A stretch of DNA of 29,003 nucleotides from an uncultured Legionella sp. (GTDB taxonomy: Bacteria; Pseudomonadota; Gammaproteobacteria; Legionellales; Legionellaceae): positions 1 to 29,003 of the forward strand of contig CAISKC010000126.1 in the NCBI GenBank assembly GCA_903885895.1. The letters run 5' to 3'. Made by a program: the position numbers and the translations under genes. Shown here piece after piece: positions 1 through 5,811 of this stretch. The notes beneath the pieces were generated by a model. That model ran no database searches, had not been told where the DNA came from, and was given only the letters and a program-made list of their open reading frames with translations. How positions within the stretch are numbered: the stretch's first letter is position 1; the number at the start of each line of letters is the position of its first letter.

Positions 1-686
1 AGCAAAGATAAAGATAACATGATGGTGGTGATGAAAGGTCTATAGTGGTTGCTTTCTTTTAAAGTCGGATTCGGTGTTTTGAATAATAACTGAGGTTTAT
101 AGATACGATGACGCTGAATAATTTTATGAAGATCTTCCATTAAATTTTCTAACACTTGCCGCCCGTCTGTACGCAGATGTTGTTCTCCCTCAAAGCCAGC
201 GATGAGGCAGTAATAAGCCAGCTCTAAGAGATCTAGGTATTGACTCCCATGGTCTTTGAGATGCGTTATGATGATGAAAAATTGAGACTCAGGCCCTAGA
301 TCATTGGCATTACTTGGTGTGAAGGCTTTGAATGCAGTAGGTTGGCCATATACGCGCAGATAATTTTTCCCTAGCAATTCGTCAATGGTCGCACTCAATA
401 AGTAATAGGCTAAAGCAATGGTGTCTTCTGCTGATTGCTGATTGACCAAGCGACTGTGAACGGCAAATAATTCATGTTCAAGATTCTCGCGCATGCTATC
501 CACTGCGGGCAATGTTTGACTGACGCATAAACGTTCTAATATAGATAAGACAGGACTTGCAGCCGCGACCAGCGGGTTGCTGGCCGCGTTAGAAGAAAAT
601 AATTTCGAGCGGAAATAGCCGGCCGGGGCTTGAATAGCCAATGGCAGCGTGAAAGGTTGCCCTGACACTTGAAGTTCGGCCGACAT
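1..686 (-). CDS. icmH: Type IVB secretion system protein IcmH/DotU (DotU/TssL family), 3' end runs off the window
   Basis: Not in the ORF track (no stop inside the window). Manual translation from ATG at 686 is open for 228 codons to the edge: MSAELQVSGQPFTLPLAIQAPAGYFRSKLFSSNAASNPLVAAASPVLSILERLCVSQTLP...AYYLLSATIDELLGKNYLRVY...YLDLLELAYYCLIAGFEGEQHLRTDGRQVLENLMEDL...RPFITTIMLSLSL. NPLVAAA, Y.L.ATIDE and LEL.Y.CL..GFEG...DGR are DotU-family motifs; a hydrophobic anchor begins at the edge. SD-like GAGGAG overlaps the ctpA stop, 8 nt before ATG. Confidence 0.85.
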   Translation of the reverse strand, partial: MSAELQVSGQPFTLPLAIQAPAGYFRSKLFSSNAASNPLVAAASPVLSILERLCVSQTLPAVDSMRENLEHELFAVHSRLVNQQSAEDTIALAYYLLSATIDELLGKNYLRVYGQPTAFKAFTPSNANDLGPESQFFIIITHLKDHGSQYLDLLELAYYCLIAGFEGEQHLRTDGRQVLENLMEDLHKIIQRHRIYKPQLLFKTPNPTLKESNHYRPFITTIMLSLSL

Positions 687-698
687 CCAAAAAGCTCC

Positions 699-2036
699 TC
701 ATCGTTGCACCGACAACCCTTTCAAAATGGTTAATGCGGCATATAATTGATAATCATCATGTAGTAAGGTAGTTTCGTCAAGTGTTGGCTTATCGTTATT
801 TACCTTTTGAATTAGATTACCATTATTGAGGTGTCGGCTCAATTCAGATTCCGAAAGATCTATGAAACTTGTTTTTTCTGTGTTTTTTGACATGGTCATT
901 TCTTCTACAACAATATCAGGTTTGATCCCTTCGGCTTGAATGGATTTGCCGGAAGGGGTGTAATATAATGCAGTGGTTAATTTGATAGCACGTTTATCAT
1001 CTAGTGGCAATACGGTTTGTACAGAGCCTTTGCCGAAGCTGCGTGTCCCTACGATGATGGCTCTCTTATTGTCTTTTAAGGCTCCGGCAACGATTTCAGA
1101 GGCAGAAGCGGAACCACCGTTAATTAATACGATCATGGGTGCATTATTCAGAATGTCTTTCGTGTTAGCCATAGCGGTAAATTTGGATCCAGGGAGTCGT
1201 CCTTGAGTAAATACAATCATTTCTCGCTTGCCATTTTTTTCTTTTTCTAAGAAGGCCCCAGAAATTTGAATAGCTGAATCTAATAGTCCTCCAGGATTAT
1301 TTCGCAAATCTAAGATGAATCCTTTGAGGTGTCCGCCAGCTTTTTGCTTTAAAGATGCAATTGCGCTGAGCATCTCTTTGCCTGTCATGGTTTGGAATTG
1401 GGTTAGACGCACGTATCCATATTCTTTGTCCAATAAACGGTCTTTGACGCTTTTGATTTCTATGTTTTCTCGTACAATGGAAAAAACAAGTGGTTTGGGA
1501 TTGCCTTTGCGGATAACCGTCAATTTGATAGCAGTACCTGGTTTGCCGCGCATCATGTTTACAGCATCTTTTAACTCTAGGCCTTGGACGTAACTTTGAT
1601 CGAGCTTAATGATATAATCTCCTGGTTTGATGCCGGCCTTGAAGGCTGGCGCATCGATCAAAGGGGAGATGACTTTGATGACCCCATCTTCAATAGTAAC
1701 TTCTATGCCTACACCACCAAATGCGCCATTCGTCGAGGATGTCAATTCTTTAAACTCAATTTCATCTAAATAAGCTGAATGCGGGTCTAAGCCGCTTAAC
1801 ATGCCGCGAATGGCATTATCAAATAATGCTTTATCATTTGTTTCATTTACATAGAAGTGTTTAATCAAACTGATGGCTCTGGAGAACCTTTCTACGTCTT
1901 CCATTTGGATTTGTTGTTCGGCAACATCTTCTTCACCCATCATTTCCCGCGTAGGGATAGCGTAGGCTGCTAAAGAAATAGAGAGAGTGAGCGTGGTTAG
2001 TGCTACAGGAATACAGTTGCTGATATGCTTAAACAT
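699..2036 (-). CDS. ctpA: Carboxyl-terminal processing protease, S41A family, with PDZ domain
   Basis: 445 aa; N-terminal signal-like segment; LDPHSAYL, GGVGIEV, PDZ (PAFKAGIKPGD), LDLRNNPGGLL, catalytic Ser (SASASEI) and Lys (FGKGSVQ). Confidence 0.95.
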   Translation of the reverse strand: MFKHISNCIPVALTTLTLSISLAAYAIPTREMMGEEDVAEQQIQMEDVERFSRAISLIKHFYVNETNDKALFDNAIRGMLSGLDPHSAYLDEIEFKELTSSTNGAFGGVGIEVTIEDGVIKVISPLIDAPAFKAGIKPGDYIIKLDQSYVQGLELKDAVNMMRGKPGTAIKLTVIRKGNPKPLVFSIVRENIEIKSVKDRLLDKEYGYVRLTQFQTMTGKEMLSAIASLKQKAGGHLKGFILDLRNNPGGLLDSAIQISGAFLEKEKNGKREMIVFTQGRLPGSKFTAMANTKDILNNAPMIVLINGGSASASEIVAGALKDNKRAIIVGTRSFGKGSVQTVLPLDDKRAIKLTTALYYTPSGKSIQAEGIKPDIVVEEMTMSKNTEKTSFIDLSESELSRHLNNGNLIQKVNNDKPTLDETTLLHDDYQLYAALTILKGLSVQR

Positions 2037-2289
2037 GAATTTTACCCCAGGAATAACATATTCGATATTATTCAGTATAGCTCAATCTGAGGTGGTCAAT
2101 GGGTGTTGCTGTAAAAAATCGCCTGGTTATCAAAAATTTTCCTGTAAACTTCTACGCTTTACCGCGCATTTTATTTGCACTGTGATCCGGGTAATGGGTT
2201 AAATAGGTCATTTTTTCAACAGTTGTTGGATATGTGGGACCAACCAATCTAGATAAGACTGGATAATACTGTGTTCGATTTGTATATTT

Positions 2290-2348
2290 TAGGACTTACG
2301 CAAAATCCCGATTTCTTCGTTCGATTTAGGTATTTTGCGTAAGTCCTA
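2290..2348. mobile_element. 59-bp MITE-like element with 17-bp perfect terminal inverted repeats and 5-bp flanking direct repeat
   Basis: TAGGACTTACGCAAAAT (2290-2306) and ATTTTGCGTAAGTCCTA (2332-2348) are exact reverse complements; TATTT flanks both sides (2285-2289, 2349-2353). Lies 18 nt past the envC stop. Confidence 0.7.
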
Positions 2349-2366
2349 TATTTACTTCATAAATGC

Positions 2367-3476
2367 TCATGTCTTAGATAACCAATCTAGCGGAGAGATG
2401 GCTTTGCCATTTTTTCTGACTTCGAAATACAAGCCAGGTTGTTTCGAAATGCCACCATGTCCGACGGTCGCGATTTGTTCACCTTGGTTTACTGTATCGC
2501 CCATATGTTTCATCAGGCTATGATTATTCGCATATAATGTCATGAGGCCCCAACCATGGTCAACGATCATTAAGAGTCCATACCCATTTAACCACTCGCA
2601 AAATACTACTTTTCCAGGATAGATGGCATGCACGGGTGTTCCTTCTGGACCGTACAGCATAATGCCTTGATGCAATGTATGGATTTGGCTGGCATCCACA
2701 TTGATAGGGTTCGGCAGTTTTCGTTTCATAGAGGACATGGCATGGTGGGTGCGAGTCACGGATGCTTGATTAAGCTTGTGTATGATTTTTGATAAATTAT
2801 CACGATTCCTTTCATAATGACCCAATGTGGTTTCTTGTGTGAGCATTTGTTGATGCACAGATTGGAGTACAGTTTGATAGTGATTTTTATGGAGCTGTAA
2901 TTGTCGTTGTTCAAGTTGCGCTTGGATCTGCATACGATGTAGGGCTGCAACTTCGTGTTGTAGAGTATGTTGCGCTTTTTGTAAAACATTTTGTGTGCTT
3001 TTGATCTCTTGCAAGAGATATTCGTGAGCATGGATAGTATATTGATAATAAGTCAGGAGTTTATCTATGTCGTTTTTTTGCGCAGGGTTGAAGATCCATG
3101 CCAAAGGCTGATGCGGTGGTTTTTTATAGCGTGCTTTGATTTGCTGTGTGAGCAATGTTTGTAGATGCGCATATTTTTGACTGGAATCTGATATTTTTTG
3201 TTCAATTTGAATGATGTCCATCTTTTTCAAAGAGATTTTTTGCTGAATTGTACGCAATGTTTGTTCATTATTTTTGATTGTTTTGTCAGTAGCAGTTAAT
3301 TCACGATGTAATTGTGTTTGTTGCGTATGTGAGTGCGTTAAGTCTTTTTGCAAGACAGAAATTTTGTGATCTAATTGCTGTAAGCTGCGCTGTGTGTCTG
3401 ACATAATTTGACTATGTGTGATGCTAGGATGTAGGCACAAGGTCATTCCAAATGCAGTGAGGGATCTTTTAAACAT
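2367..3476 (-). CDS. envC: Murein hydrolase activator EnvC-like protein (coiled coil + degenerate M23/LytM domain)
   Basis: Likely start ATG 3476 (MFKRS..., 8-nt overlap with the gpmI stop). Long Gln-rich coiled coil, then LytM domain (GTPVHAIYPGKVVF..WLNGYGLLMIVDHG...LYFEVRKNGKAISPLDWL) lacking the Zn-binding HxH, as in EnvC; canonical position between gpmI and ctpA. Confidence 0.85.
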   Translation of the reverse strand: MFKRSLTAFGMTLCLHPSITHSQIMSDTQRSLQQLDHKISVLQKDLTHSHTQQTQLHRELTATDKTIKNNEQTLRTIQQKISLKKMDIIQIEQKISDSSQKYAHLQTLLTQQIKARYKKPPHQPLAWIFNPAQKNDIDKLLTYYQYTIHAHEYLLQEIKSTQNVLQKAQHTLQHEVAALHRMQIQAQLEQRQLQLHKNHYQTVLQSVHQQMLTQETTLGHYERNRDNLSKIIHKLNQASVTRTHHAMSSMKRKLPNPINVDASQIHTLHQGIMLYGPEGTPVHAIYPGKVVFCEWLNGYGLLMIVDHGWGLMTLYANNHSLMKHMGDTVNQGEQIATVGHGGISKQPGLYFEVRKNGKAISPLDWLSKT

Positions 3477-5007
3477 GATTGGCCCACAACGCATGGCCTG
3501 TCATTTCTTTAGGAGGTTGGATGCCTAATAAAGTCAGAATAGTGGGCGCAATGTCAATTAAGCTTCCCAGTTCTTGCTGAAATTGCCGTTGTGGGTCGCC
3601 GACGTACAGAAAAGGGACGGGTGAACAAGTGTGTGCAGTATGAGGTTGCTGGGTTTGGTCATCAAACATAAATTCTGCATTACCATGATCTGCTGTGATA
3701 AATAAATGTCCGTTTACTTGTTGGATGGCCGCCCCAATTTTTTCTAAGGCGTGGTCAATGGCTTCTATGGCAGCAACTGTTGCCTGAAAATGACCAGAAT
3801 GCCCCACCATATCAGCATTAGCAAAATTGCAAATAATCACATCAAAATGTTGTGATGTGATGGCATCAATCAAAGCTGTTGCAAGTTGCGCGACACTCAT
3901 TTCAGGCTGTAAATCGTAGGTGGCAACTTGTGGCGATGGGATCATGATACGCTCTTCTCGTTTAAATTTACAATTTTCCCCGCCGTTGAAAAAGAAGGTG
4001 ACATGTGCATATTTTTCGGTTTCGGCAATTCGCAATTGACATAATTCATGCTGTGCTAGGACTTCACCGAAGGTCTGTTGTAAATGACGAGGTGGGAAAA
4101 CCGATTCAGTAGGTAATTGCGGATCATAGGGTGTCATGCTAACAAAATGAGCTAAATGCGGTACGGTTTGGCGTGTAAACCCCTGAAAATCGGGTGCAAG
4201 AAATGCCGCAGTTAATTGTTTTGCACGATCCGCGCGGAAATTAAAATAAAAAAGCGCGTCTCCGTCGGCGATGGGTGTGGGTGACCCAATTTGAGTGGGT
4301 GGAAAAAATTCATCGCTGAGTCCTTGATCGTAATAAGCATGGATGGCTTCTTCTACGCTGGCGTATTGATGAGGGCTGTGGCCAGTTGTTAAGAGCTGGT
4401 ATACCGGCTCAATACGAGGCCAACGCTGATCGCGATCCATGGCCCAATATCGTCCACACAGGGAACGTACTTTACCAACTGGGTATTGGTGAAGTATCGT
4501 TTGCAATGATTGGAAACTTTCTTGAATTTGTTTAGGCGGTACGTCGCGACCGTCTAAAAACAGATGGATATTGATTTGAGTGTAATGCTGTTTTGCACAT
4601 AGTTTGAGAAATGCAAAGAGATGATTTTGATGGCTATGGACACCTCCATGCGACAGTAAGCCCATGATGTGAATGGCTTTTTTTGTGTCTTTGGCATCCT
4701 GAATCATACGAAGCAAGACAGGGTTGTTCTCAAAATCACCCGTCTCAATAGCTTGATTGATAAAGGTCAAATCTTGTAATATTTTTCGTCCTGCCCCAAT
4801 ATGCATGTGTCCTACTTCGGAATTTCCCATTTGGCCAGTGGGCAGGCCGACAGCTGTCCCAGAGGCATCAAGCAAGACATGTGGGCATGTTTGCCACCAA
4901 TGAGTCCATTGTGGAGTATGCGCTGCTGCAATGGCGTTTTGACTAGGATTTTCGCGATAACCCCATCCATCTAGGATAATCAGAACGACTGCTTTTTTAT
5001 TTACCAT
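3469..5007 (-). CDS. gpmI: 2,3-bisphosphoglycerate-independent phosphoglycerate mutase
   Basis: ILDGWG, GLPTGQMGNSEVGH (catalytic Ser), HLFLDGRD, GRYWAMDRD, NFRADRA, AETEKYAHVTFFFNGG, NFANADMVGH, TADHGNAE. Start ATG 5007 preferred over GTG 5016. Confidence 0.97.
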   Translation of the reverse strand: MVNKKAVVLIILDGWGYRENPSQNAIAAAHTPQWTHWWQTCPHVLLDASGTAVGLPTGQMGNSEVGHMHIGAGRKILQDLTFINQAIETGDFENNPVLLRMIQDAKDTKKAIHIMGLLSHGGVHSHQNHLFAFLKLCAKQHYTQINIHLFLDGRDVPPKQIQESFQSLQTILHQYPVGKVRSLCGRYWAMDRDQRWPRIEPVYQLLTTGHSPHQYASVEEAIHAYYDQGLSDEFFPPTQIGSPTPIADGDALFYFNFRADRAKQLTAAFLAPDFQGFTRQTVPHLAHFVSMTPYDPQLPTESVFPPRHLQQTFGEVLAQHELCQLRIAETEKYAHVTFFFNGGENCKFKREERIMIPSPQVATYDLQPEMSVAQLATALIDAITSQHFDVIICNFANADMVGHSGHFQATVAAIEAIDHALEKIGAAIQQVNGHLFITADHGNAEFMFDDQTQQPHTAHTCSPVPFLYVGDPQRQFQQELGSLIDIAPTILTLLGIQPPKEMTGHALWANHV

Positions 5008-5076
5008 AATTGCCACTTAATTTTTTTTCATAAAGAGGGTAAACTATAGGCCATTTTTGTCAATGGAAGAAGTAGT

Positions 5077-5811
5077 TTGAAGCAAAAAATACCACAGCAT
5101 GTGGCCATTATTATGGATGGCAACGGTCGTTGGGCCGAACAACGTGGATTAGCGCGCAGCGAAGGGCACCGCAAAGGTGCGGAAGTTGTTAAAAAAATTG
5201 TTCGTGCTTGTGTGGACAAACAGATTCCAGTTTTAAGTGTTTGGGCTTTTGGACGAGATAATTGGGCTCGACCGGCATCAGAGGTAGATTTCTTGATGCA
5301 ATTACTCTTATCTGTATTAGATCTTGAGTTGGATGAATTACATCAGGCGGGTGTGCGTTTGGTTTTTACTGGGGATAGAATAGGGTTGTCAGAGATATTA
5401 CAGCAAGCTATCACGACCGCAGAAGCGTACACGGCAAACAATGAATGTTTGATTTTGAATGTGGTTTTTAATTACAGCGGTAAATGGGATATTTTACAAA
5501 GCGTGAAAAAAATAGCGCAAGATGTGGTGGATGGTGATATAAGTATCCAGGATATTGATGCCGCATTGTTTTCTTCTTATCTAAGTACCCACTATTTGCC
5601 TGATCCAGATTTATTTATTCGGACTAGTGGTGAGCAGCGAATCAGTGATTTTTTTCTGTGGCAATTGGCGTATACAGAATTGTACTTTTCTGAGCTAAGT
5701 TGGCCAGATTTCACGGCTGAAGAATTTACTGCCGCGATCAATTTCTTTGCGGAACGTGAGCGACGTTATGGAAAAACCTCAAAACAATTGGAAGAAAAAA
5801 CCTATGTTTAA
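5077..5811 (+). CDS. uppS: Undecaprenyl diphosphate synthase (cis-prenyltransferase)
   Basis: TTG start; PQHVAIIMDGNGRWA, GHRKG, NW.RP, PDLFIRTSGEQRIS.F.LWQLAYTELYF; first gene of the uppS-cdsA-rseP-bamA cluster. Confidence 0.94.
   Translation: MKQKIPQHVAIIMDGNGRWAEQRGLARSEGHRKGAEVVKKIVRACVDKQIPVLSVWAFGRDNWARPASEVDFLMQLLLSVLDLELDELHQAGVRLVFTGDRIGLSEILQQAITTAEAYTANNECLILNVVFNYSGKWDILQSVKKIAQDVVDGDISIQDIDAALFSSYLSTHYLPDPDLFIRTSGEQRISDFFLWQLAYTELYFSELSWPDFTAEEFTAAINFFAERERRYGKTSKQLEEKTYV

What the first reader, a model, noticed from the sequence alone, without database searches (positions are those of the whole stretch)
1..5007. Dot/Icm polar-targeting gene icmH/dotU appended to the gpmI-envC-ctpA envelope/division cluster
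Seen: an ORF missing from the track starts 12 nt after the ctpA stop, its SD (GAGGAG) overlaps that TGA, and it translates to a DotU-family protein. Established: DotU/IcmH with IcmF recruits the Dot/Icm machine to the cell pole in Legionella pneumophila; EnvC activates septal amidases; S41 proteases such as CtpA/Prc control peptidoglycan hydrolases; in many gammaproteobacteria the slot after gpmI-envC(-ctpA) holds yibQ. As I recall, L. pneumophila icmH is not next to ctpA. Inference: T4BSS nucleation may be co-expressed with cell-wall remodelling functions here, which could couple secretion-system placement to new-pole formation. This is my best candidate for an undescribed arrangement in the window.
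Basis: partly seen in the sequence, partly recalled or inferred. Interest (0 to 1): 0.7.

Follow-up and report, generated by a model that had tools for sequence, protein, structure and literature searches.

The report
icmH-icmF pair fused behind ctpA
An ordinary pair of Legionella secretion-machine genes (icmH/dotU and icmF) sits directly behind a cell-wall protease gene; this layout is shared by many uncultured Legionella relatives, so it is an inherited local gene order, not a one-off oddity.

Summary
On the minus strand, an ORF (686..3) starts 12 nt after the ctpA stop, with GGAG directly behind the TGA. It is a type IVB IcmH/DotU (NF038228, 277.6 bits, cut-off 50). It is cut at 228 aa by the contig end. 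Its tail and an overlapping icmF (NF038226, 1369 bits) lie on another contig (C447), about 17-19 nt away.

It is the only DotU in the genome. IcmK and IcmL are present, and no T6SS sheath gene was found.

The arrangement is not unique. gpmI-envC-ctpA-icmH-icmF is contiguous in all 8 sampled genomes of the same genus and in 8 further Legionellaceae genera. Eight more genera have other genes in between, in seven of them a secreted adenosine-deaminase-like gene. The genera that look like classic Legionella, the deep branches of the family and 27 loci from other gammaproteobacterial families lack the linkage. The 12-nt junction is conserved across genera, so I infer read-through from ctpA, but this is untested.

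L. pneumophila data show that tsp/ctpA is not co-transcribed with the envC-like gene upstream of it, which weakens the proposed link to cell division.

Another window of this scan noted the same layout. Interest is low to moderate.

The parts
3..686 (-). icmH/dotU, first 228 codons of about 260. The gene is cut by the contig end. The start of its C-terminal membrane helix (ITTIMLSLSL) is the last thing encoded in the window.
   Evidence: NF038228 at 277.6 bits and PF09850 at 107.8 bits. It is the only DotU match in the genome. It continues on G000:C447.
687..698 (-). 12-nt ctpA-icmH spacer, GGAGCTTTTTGG. The Shine-Dalgarno GGAG at 698..695 directly abuts the ctpA TGA at 701..699. There is no room for a terminator.
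   Evidence: Read from the sequence. The same 12-nt layout, stop-GGAG-N8-ATGTC, is found in 5 other genomes of genus g1 and in g14; the spacer is 15-16 nt in g34 and g3.
699..2036 (-). ctpA/tsp, a periplasmic S41 C-terminal processing protease (445 aa; CtpB_N-like, PDZ and S41 domains).
   Evidence: TIGR00225 at 339.3 bits (cut-off 218.6) and PF03572 at 177.9 bits. Best solved relative is 7rpq_A, 'probable carboxyl-terminal protease' (P. aeruginosa CtpA from memory), at 396 bits.
2037..2366 (-). 330-nt envC-ctpA spacer. By analogy with L. pneumophila this is the likely place of the ctpA promoter. It holds a 59-nt palindromic repeat element.
   Evidence: ORF coordinates. In L. pneumophila the tsp start site lies in the lpg0500-lpg0499 spacer. 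The consensus scan found no sigma-70 site here.
2290..2348 (.). MITE/REP-like palindromic element with 20-nt arms (TAGGACTTACGCAAAAT...). It is a dispersed repeat.
   Evidence: Inverted repeat, 95% complementary. Its termini occur 31 times on 22 contigs of the genome. Contigs of other runs break off at its edges.
2367..3494 (-). envC-like amidase-activator gene (375 aa; coiled coil plus a degenerate LytM/M23 domain).
   Evidence: PF01551 at 95.3 bits. NF008644 EnvC at 138.6 bits, below its cut-off of 270. Full-length alignment to M23 chain 8tzk_E, and matches to chains deposited as 'murein hydrolase activator EnvC' (8hd0_E, 6tpi_A).
3469..5016 (-). gpmI, 2,3-bisphosphoglycerate-independent phosphoglycerate mutase (515 aa). 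As called, it overlaps envC by 26 nt.
   Evidence: TIGR01307 at 679.2 bits (cut-off 330.65); ORF list.

Best explanation

In this lineage the pair is detached from the other dot/icm genes. It sits at the end of the co-oriented housekeeping run gpmI-envC-ctpA.

Shown:
- The identity of all five genes.
- The 12-nt junction with its ribosome-binding site and no terminator.
- The overlap of the icmH stop with the icmF start.
- Conservation of the same order, and of the same junction, in many genera of the family.
- Absence of the linkage from the genera that appear to be classic Legionella, from the deep branches and from the outgroups.

Inferred history:
1. The older state was gpmI-envC-ctpA followed by a secreted adenosine-deaminase-like (ADA-like) gene.
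2. icmHF came to lie behind that gene.
3. The ADA-like gene was then lost or moved. That left ctpA and icmH 12 nt apart, a state inherited by a clade of at least six genera.

Inferred mechanism:
- icmH-icmF are transcribed by read-through from the ctpA promoter, which lies in the 330-nt spacer upstream of ctpA.
- icmH is translated from its own Shine-Dalgarno site next to the ctpA stop.
- IcmH and IcmF then act as in L. pneumophila: they stabilise the Dot/Icm complex and recruit DotC/DotH to the poles.

The confidence of 0.68 is for the whole statement including the inferred read-through; the gene identities and the conserved synteny alone I hold at about 0.97.
For: Gene identities.

It is the single DotU in the genome. 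IcmK and IcmL lie on contig C468, and no TssC was found in a genome 95% complete.

Contig join:
- The end of C447 encodes ...SQRLLDYQAKNVFQHYSTMVKHGLLNE, then the stop.
- This matches the IcmH C-termini of four relatives. About 17-19 nt are missing between the contigs.
- The icmF ATG overlaps the icmH stop.

Distribution over one representative per genus, plus 8 genomes of the window's own genus:
- Directly adjacent in g1 (8 of 8, plus the window), g3, g6, g12, g14, g15, g27, g34 and g36.
- A 1.8-4 kb gap in g2, g7, g21, g22, g23, g24, g37 and g45. In seven of these the gap holds the same ADA-like gene; g24 holds other ORFs.
- None of the 30 best-scoring loci, all from genera g32, g4, g19, g5 and g21, has ctpA within 1.5 kb.
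- In four complete g32 genomes ctpA is 0.24-1.9 Mb away.
- In g32 genome G082, ctpA is followed by the ADA-like gene.
- None of 27 DotU loci from other gammaproteobacterial families has ctpA upstream.

An IcmH+IcmF tree rooted on 4 outgroups puts every linked state inside one 37-row clade (SH-aLRT 92). The tight junctions fall in a 14-row clade (SH-aLRT 95).

The junction stop-GGAG-N8-ATGTC, 12 nt long, is conserved in g1 and g14. No terminator-like site lies on the minus strand between 5016 and 1.

An independent 39.5-kb contig spans the junction.

The function of IcmF/DotU is taken from PMC6761968 and bioRxiv 10.1101/315721.
Against: - There are no expression data. No RNA run was available, so co-transcription is inferred from spacing alone.
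- An internal promoter in the 3' end of ctpA is not excluded. A 9/12 sigma-70-like site lies at 781..753, but the number of such sites in the region is no higher than in shuffled sequence.
- The consensus scan found no promoter in the envC-ctpA spacer.
- The tree is a gene tree of the two proteins in question, built with a quick search, and 19 of its 49 inner branches are unresolved. The order of events (relocation, then loss of the ADA-like gene) is therefore the simplest reading, not a demonstrated one.
- The window's genome still has an ADA-like gene on C362, at 47.5% identity.
- Only one genome per genus was examined outside g1.
- The genome is fragmented (557 contigs) with 5.7% estimated contamination.
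Confidence: 0.68

Rival explanations
1. Neutral adjacency without co-regulation. Deletion of the intervening ADA-like gene during genome compaction happened to bring icmHF next to ctpA. icmHF keeps its own promoter, embedded in the last ~100 nt of ctpA, and the layout has no regulatory meaning.
For: - The gapped state with the ADA-like gene exists in related genera.
- Genomes with the tight junction are small, 1.7-2.8 Mb.
- A weak sigma-70-like site lies at 781..753 on the minus strand.
- g1 genomes tolerate a 50-nt hairpin inserted into the spacer (L038, L040, L041), so exact spacing is not essential.
Against: - The 12-nt stop-GGAG-N8-ATG layout is kept in different genera (g1, g14; near-identical in g3 and g34).
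- No terminator can fit in the spacer, so read-through from ctpA is hard to avoid, whether or not an extra promoter exists.
- Promoter-like sites in the region are no more frequent than in shuffled sequence.
Confidence: 0.22
2. The linkage is selected because nucleation of the secretion machine (IcmH/IcmF) must be co-expressed with septal cell-wall remodelling (EnvC, CtpA). That would tie Dot/Icm placement to the formation of new poles.
For: - All five genes are co-oriented with short or overlapping junctions. In g3, g14, g15, g34 and g36 the envC-ctpA junction is also only about 3-26 nt.
- The linkage persists across many genera.
- DotU/IcmF direct polar localisation in L. pneumophila (abstract of bioRxiv 10.1101/315721).
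Against: - The evidence is adjacency only.
- The genera that appear to be classic Legionella, and all sampled outgroups, work without the linkage.
- In several genera an unrelated ADA-like gene lies between ctpA and icmH.
- In L. pneumophila, tsp is not co-transcribed with the envC-like lpg0500 and is a post-exponential, stress-induced gene.
- In the window a 330-nt spacer with a repeat element separates envC from ctpA.
Confidence: 0.08
3. Artefact or misidentification. Either the junction is a chimeric metagenomic assembly, or the ORF is a T6SS TssL rather than IcmH.
For: - The genome is a fragmented bin: 557 contigs, 5.7% contamination.
- The gene lies at a contig end.
- The NF038228 cut-off (50 bits) is lenient. 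Many non-Legionellaceae DotU genes pass it.
Against: - A 39.5-kb contig from another run spans the junction at about 98% identity.
- Sixteen loci from other genomes have the same order.
- The score is 277.6 bits, against 68.7 bits for the T6SS model.
- The partner gene matches IcmF_IVB at 1369 bits, above its cut-off of 1000.
- No TssC was found.
Confidence: 0.02

Closest known systems
[quoted passage not shown]
   Same: - Both proteins score above the cut-offs of the NCBIfam 'equivalog' models for IcmH and IcmF (NF038228, NF038226).
- icmH comes before icmF, with overlapping stop and start codons.
- IcmH is tail-anchored.
- There is one copy per genome.
   Different: - In L. pneumophila the pair lies beside icmB in region II (locus tags in PMC6761968).
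- Here it is detached from the other dot/icm genes; IcmK and IcmL are on another contig. It lies between ctpA and a convergent cyoD.
- IcmH is about 50-56% identical to the homologues in the genera sampled.
L. pneumophila tsp/ctpA (lpg0499), downstream of the M23 peptidase gene lpg0500
   Same: The order is the same: an envC-like M23 gene, then a spacer, then the S41 protease gene. The best solved relative is chain 7rpq_A, 'probable carboxyl-terminal protease' (P. aeruginosa CtpA from memory).
   Different: - In L. pneumophila, tsp has its own start site, an antisense sRNA (Lpr17), and is not polycistronic with lpg0500.
- In g32 genome G082 an ADA-like gene follows ctpA; here icmH follows it.
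- Whether an Lpr17 counterpart exists here was not established. Rfam gave nothing.
T6SS TssL-TssM (DotU/IcmF-like membrane complex)
   Same: It shares the DotU fold family (PF09850). IcmF also passes the TssM model (TIGR03348, 406 bits). The two proteins form a tail-anchored pair.
   Different: - The T6SS-specific DotU models score far below their cut-offs.
- No sheath gene was found in the genome.
- The open frame ends after about 260 aa with no further domain, whereas several non-Legionellaceae matches have open frames of 440-540 aa.
gpmI-envC-ctpA(-yibQ) envelope cluster of gammaproteobacteria
   Same: The three genes are co-oriented in the usual order. The envC-like gene has a degenerate LytM domain, as EnvC does.
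   Different: The position after ctpA holds icmH-icmF here, and an ADA-like gene in other Legionellaceae. The yibQ claim itself was not tested.

Membership tests
IcmH/DotU of type IVB secretion systems (NCBIfam NF038228) | Scores above the equivalog cut-off and better than the T6SS DotU models | tested here: met
   277.6 bits against a cut-off of 50. The T6SS model NF005444 scores 68.7 bits against a cut-off of 520.
IcmH/DotU of type IVB secretion systems (NCBIfam NF038228) | DotU core domain followed by a single C-terminal membrane anchor | tested here: inconclusive
   The core domain PF09850 covers residues 38-218. The hydrophobic stretch ITTIMLSLSL begins at the window edge. The rest is inferred from C447 and from relatives (LLMAMYVGSQ...) across an unassembled gap of about 17-19 nt.
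IcmH/DotU of type IVB secretion systems (NCBIfam NF038228) | Immediately followed by its partner gene icmF | tested here: met
   IcmF_IVB (NF038226) at 1369 bits on C447, with 78 nt of the icmH tail before it. The two genes are contiguous in L004-L007 and in all other loci examined.
IcmH/DotU of type IVB secretion systems (NCBIfam NF038228) | The genome carries the rest of the Dot/Icm machine and no T6SS | tested here: met
   IcmK/DotH at 347 bits and IcmL/DotI at 206 bits on C468. No VipB/TssC match was found in a genome 95% complete. Only two core genes were checked.
IcmH/DotU of type IVB secretion systems (NCBIfam NF038228) | Stabilises the Dot/Icm complex and targets it to the poles | not testable with these tools
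   This function is known from L. pneumophila only.
S41 C-terminal processing protease, CtpA/Tsp type | PDZ plus S41 domain architecture, with a score above the family cut-off | tested here: met
   TIGR00225 at 339.3 bits (cut-off 218.6); PF03572, PF13180 and PF22694; 396 bits to 7rpq_A. The catalytic Ser/Lys pair was not inspected.
EnvC (murein hydrolase activator) | N-terminal coiled coil plus C-terminal LytM domain, with a score above the equivalog cut-off | tested here: inconclusive
   NF008644 scores 138.6 bits, below its cut-off of 270. The protein does align over residues 29-373 to M23 chain 8tzk_E and matches chains named EnvC.
EnvC (murein hydrolase activator) | LytM domain lacking the metal-binding residues of active M23 peptidases (HxxxD and HxH motifs) | tested here: met
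   Read from the sequence and from the alignment to 8tzk_E. QGIMLYG stands where HxxxD would be, and GLYFEV where HxH would be. The motifs themselves come from general knowledge of M23 peptidases.
Single transcription unit ctpA-icmH-icmF | One mRNA spanning the junctions | not testable with these tools
   Only indirect evidence is available: the 12-nt spacer, no terminator-like site, and the overlapping icmH/icmF codons.

The most novel reading that the evidence does not exclude
In a clade of at least six uncultured Legionellaceae genera, icmH-icmF have lost their own regulation and are expressed only as the tail of the ctpA/tsp transcript. The step that nucleates the Dot/Icm machine at the poles would then be controlled by the envelope-stress, post-exponential programme that drives tsp in L. 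pneumophila. Going further, CtpA-controlled peptidoglycan hydrolases might open the cell wall where IcmH/IcmF seed the machine.
Probability: 0.12. Interest if true: 0.5.

Novelty: new member of a known kind. Interest (0 to 1): 0.27.

Why it matters
The proteins themselves are standard. Three modest points of value remain.

1. The dot/icm loci are usually described from cultured Legionella, where icmHF sits beside icmB. Many uncultured genera of the family carry icmHF as a detached pair, fused to the end of a housekeeping envelope cluster. Annotators and secretion-system detection tools that expect co-localised genes should take this into account.

2. The conserved 12-nt junction gives a clean, testable case of a virulence-machine gene pair captured by a housekeeping promoter.

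3. The three states give a stepwise history that can be checked on a species tree: ctpA-ADA, then ctpA-ADA-icmHF, then ctpA-icmHF.

None of this yet supports a mechanistic link between secretion-system placement and cell division.

Tried and rejected
- **RNA evidence.** No RNA holder was listed for window 1-2400, so nothing can be said about expression.
- **Known RNA families.** The Rfam scan of 1-5400 gave only one sub-threshold hit: Rp_sR47, 28.4 bits against a gathering score of 60, at 1063-1130 on the plus strand. I treat it as chance.
- **Promoters and terminators.** The counts did not exceed those in shuffled sequence: 16 against 13.1 promoter-like sites and 6 against 5.2 terminator-like sites. 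The sites at 781..753 and 2563..2534 are therefore not evidence.
- **Contig overlap.** There is no exact overlap between the end of C447 and the start of C126. The join rests on homology to relatives.
- **Order-level search.** It returned only the same family, because the taxonomic order as held contains no other family. I used a class-level search for outgroups instead.
- **Literature.** Searches for icmH with ctpA, for icmF/dotU with Legionellales and synteny, and for icmH/icmF with operon found no paper describing the linkage. The library is incomplete, so this is weak evidence of novelty.
- **L. pneumophila genomes.** The genomes flagged as limited (G133, G140, G157) were not scored. I assume L. 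pneumophila is among them. Its neighbourhood was taken from locus tags in papers, not from sequence.
- **Structure and complex prediction.** I did not run these, because the report makes no binding claim.


Full report
**What is in the window.** Four co-oriented ORFs lie on the minus strand of window 1-5016.
- gpmI is 5016..3469. It matches TIGR01307 at 679 bits.
- An envC-like gene is 3494..2367. It has a coiled coil and an M23/LytM domain. It scores 138.6 bits on the EnvC model NF008644, below the cut-off of 270. It aligns over residues 29-373 to M23 chain 8tzk_E and also matches chains deposited as EnvC.
- The LytM domain lacks the metal-binding motifs: QGIMLYG and GLYFEV stand where active M23 peptidases have HxxxD and HxH. 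This fits an activator rather than an enzyme.
- ctpA/tsp is 2036..699. It matches TIGR00225 at 339 bits, and its best solved relative is chain 7rpq_A, deposited as 'probable carboxyl-terminal protease' (P. aeruginosa CtpA from memory), at 396 bits.
- A fourth ORF is 686..3 and runs off the window.

**The junction.** On the minus strand the junction reads CAACGA-TGA-GGAGCTTTTTGG-ATG-TCG.

**Identity of the fourth ORF.** The 228-aa translation matches PF09850 DotU at 107.8 bits. It matches the type IVB equivalog NF038228 at 277.6 bits, while the T6SS DotU models stay far below their cut-offs.
- The window is the first 29 kb of contig C126, in a genome of 557 contigs (2.82 Mb, 95% complete, 5.7% contamination). 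The gene is therefore truncated by the assembly, not by biology.
- It is the only DotU in the genome.
- The one IcmF match is a 970-aa frame on the 3.8-kb contig C447. It matches NF038226 IcmF_IVB at 1369 bits against a cut-off of 1000.
- The 78 nt upstream of that icmF encode ...SQRLLDYQAKNVFQHYSTMVKHGLLNE, then the stop. This is the C-terminus of IcmH in the four nearest public relatives. About 17-19 nt are missing between the two contigs.
- The icmF ATG overlaps the icmH stop.
- IcmK and IcmL lie on contig C468, and no T6SS sheath gene was found.
- The gene is therefore the genuine icmH of a Dot/Icm system, followed by icmF and then a convergent cyoD.

**Is the junction real?** Yes.
- A 39.5-kb contig from a groundwater metagenome run covers window 1-2400 in one piece. 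It has 40 differences and continues 19.8 kb past the window start.
- Short contigs identical to the window come from a lake-water run, which may be the source sample.

**How common is the arrangement?**
- Four named MAG loci have gpmI-envC-ctpA-icmH-icmF contiguous. They are Legionella sp. 2055-AUS-E, a Legionellaceae bacterium and two uncultured Legionella sp., with IcmH 75-90% identical to the window's.
- I located IcmH in 140 of 149 sampled Legionellaceae genomes. I then fetched up to 7 kb upstream for one representative of each genus and for all 8 genomes of the window's genus.
- ctpA is directly adjacent in g1 (8 of 8), g3, g6, g12, g14, g15, g27, g34 and g36.
- ctpA lies 1.8-4 kb away in g2, g7, g21, g22, g23, g24, g37 and g45.
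- ctpA is absent from the upstream flank in 20 genera. In 15 of them 5-7 kb of flank was available (g4, g5, g13, g16, g17, g19, g30, g32, g33, g35, g40-g44); in 5 the flank was only 0.7-3.2 kb, enough to exclude direct adjacency only (g9, g10, g11, g18, g38).
- Four genera could not be judged because the contig ends too soon.
- None of the 30 best-scoring IcmH loci, all from genera g32, g4, g19, g5 and g21 (large genomes, many of them complete), has ctpA within 1.5 kb.
- In four complete g32 genomes the two genes are 0.24-1.9 Mb apart.
- None of 27 DotU loci from other gammaproteobacterial families has ctpA upstream.
- Another window of this scan, from a different genome, carries a first-reader note of the same layout.

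**History.**
- In seven of the eight gapped genera the intervening gene is a ~490-aa secreted adenosine-deaminase-like (ADA-like) protein. In g24 the gap holds other ORFs.
- In g32 genome G082 the same ADA-like gene follows ctpA directly, with icmHF elsewhere.
- An IcmH+IcmF tree rooted on four outgroup loci places the unlinked genera g40, g13, g16, g30, g41, g11, g18, g4, g32 and g44 at the base.
- Every linked state falls inside one 37-row clade (SH-aLRT 92). The tight junctions of g1, g3, g12, g14, g15 and g34 fall in one 14-row clade (SH-aLRT 95).
- The simplest reading is ctpA-ADA, then ctpA-ADA-icmHF, then ctpA-icmHF.
- This is a quick gene tree with many unresolved forks, so the order of events is an inference.
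- The window's genome keeps an ADA-like gene on C362.

**Mechanism.**
- The 12-nt layout stop-GGAG-N8-ATGTC recurs in the window, in five other g1 genomes and in g14. The spacers in g34 and g3 are 15-16 nt.
- Nothing in 12 nt can terminate transcription, and no terminator-like site lies on the minus strand between gpmI and the window start. Read-through from ctpA into icmH-icmF is therefore the most likely mode of expression.
- This remains untested. No RNA run was available, and an extra promoter inside the end of ctpA cannot be excluded.
- Three g1 genomes carry a ~50-nt hairpin insert in this spacer, so exact spacing is not essential.

**The proposed link to cell division.**
- In L. pneumophila, tsp (lpg0499) lies downstream of the M23 peptidase gene lpg0500. 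It has its own start site and an antisense sRNA, is not polycistronic with lpg0500 by RT-PCR, and is induced in the post-exponential phase and during infection (bioRxiv 10.1101/2020.12.08.417196).
- In the window a 330-nt spacer with a repeat element separates envC from ctpA.
- If icmHF ride on a neighbour's promoter, the neighbour is the protease, not the septal activator.
- DotU/IcmF stabilise the complex and recruit it to the poles in L. pneumophila. No result here connects that role to EnvC or CtpA.

**Verdict.**
- The gene identification and the contrast with L. pneumophila are right.
- The arrangement is real and conserved, and it is not described in the papers I could search.
- It is common in uncultured Legionellaceae. 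Its functional meaning is unproven, and the division-coupling idea has no support beyond adjacency.
- It is a normal icmHF pair in a lineage-typical genomic context, and of modest interest.

Noticed in passing
window 2290-2348; also L038 and L041 (ctpA-icmH spacer): A MITE/REP-like palindromic element with 20-nt arms (TAGGACTTACGCAAAAT...). Its termini occur 31 times on 22 contigs of this genome, with inner parts of varying length. Contigs from other metagenome runs break off at its edges. Two genomes of the same genus carry an insert ending in the same terminus (TTTTGCGTAAGTCCTA) inside the ctpA-icmH spacer. A third (L040) has a different hairpin there.
   Followed up: partly
L050:5308-6780, L115:3787-5277, and G000 contig C362:155-1597: A secreted adenosine-deaminase-like gene (~490 aa; TIGR01430 at 86-93 bits, below the cut-off) follows ctpA in many Legionellaceae and separates ctpA from icmH in seven genera. 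The window's genome has a 47.5%-identical copy on another contig.
   Followed up: partly
G000 contig C447:323-688 (+): cyoD (cytochrome o ubiquinol oxidase subunit IV, TIGR02847 at 106 bits) converges on the end of icmF. The icmHF pair is therefore not next to any other dot/icm gene in this genome.
   Followed up: yes
L066:2533-3013 (genus g24): In g24 the ctpA-icmH gap holds two small overlapping ORFs (86 and 76 aa) that look like a toxin-antitoxin pair, plus a 477-aa ORF, instead of the ADA-like gene. None of them was identified.
   Followed up: no
window 1063-1130 (+): A sub-threshold Rfam hit to Rickettsia sRNA47 (28.4 bits against a gathering score of 60), antisense to ctpA. It is probably chance, but L. 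pneumophila does have an antisense sRNA (Lpr17) at the 5' end of tsp.
   Followed up: no
window 1-2400 in public runs: Near-identical sequence is found in groundwater, lake-water and freshwater metagenomes from several studies. A strain about 98% identical is assembled into a 39.5-kb contig in a groundwater run. This suggests a widespread freshwater Legionellaceae lineage.
   Followed up: partly
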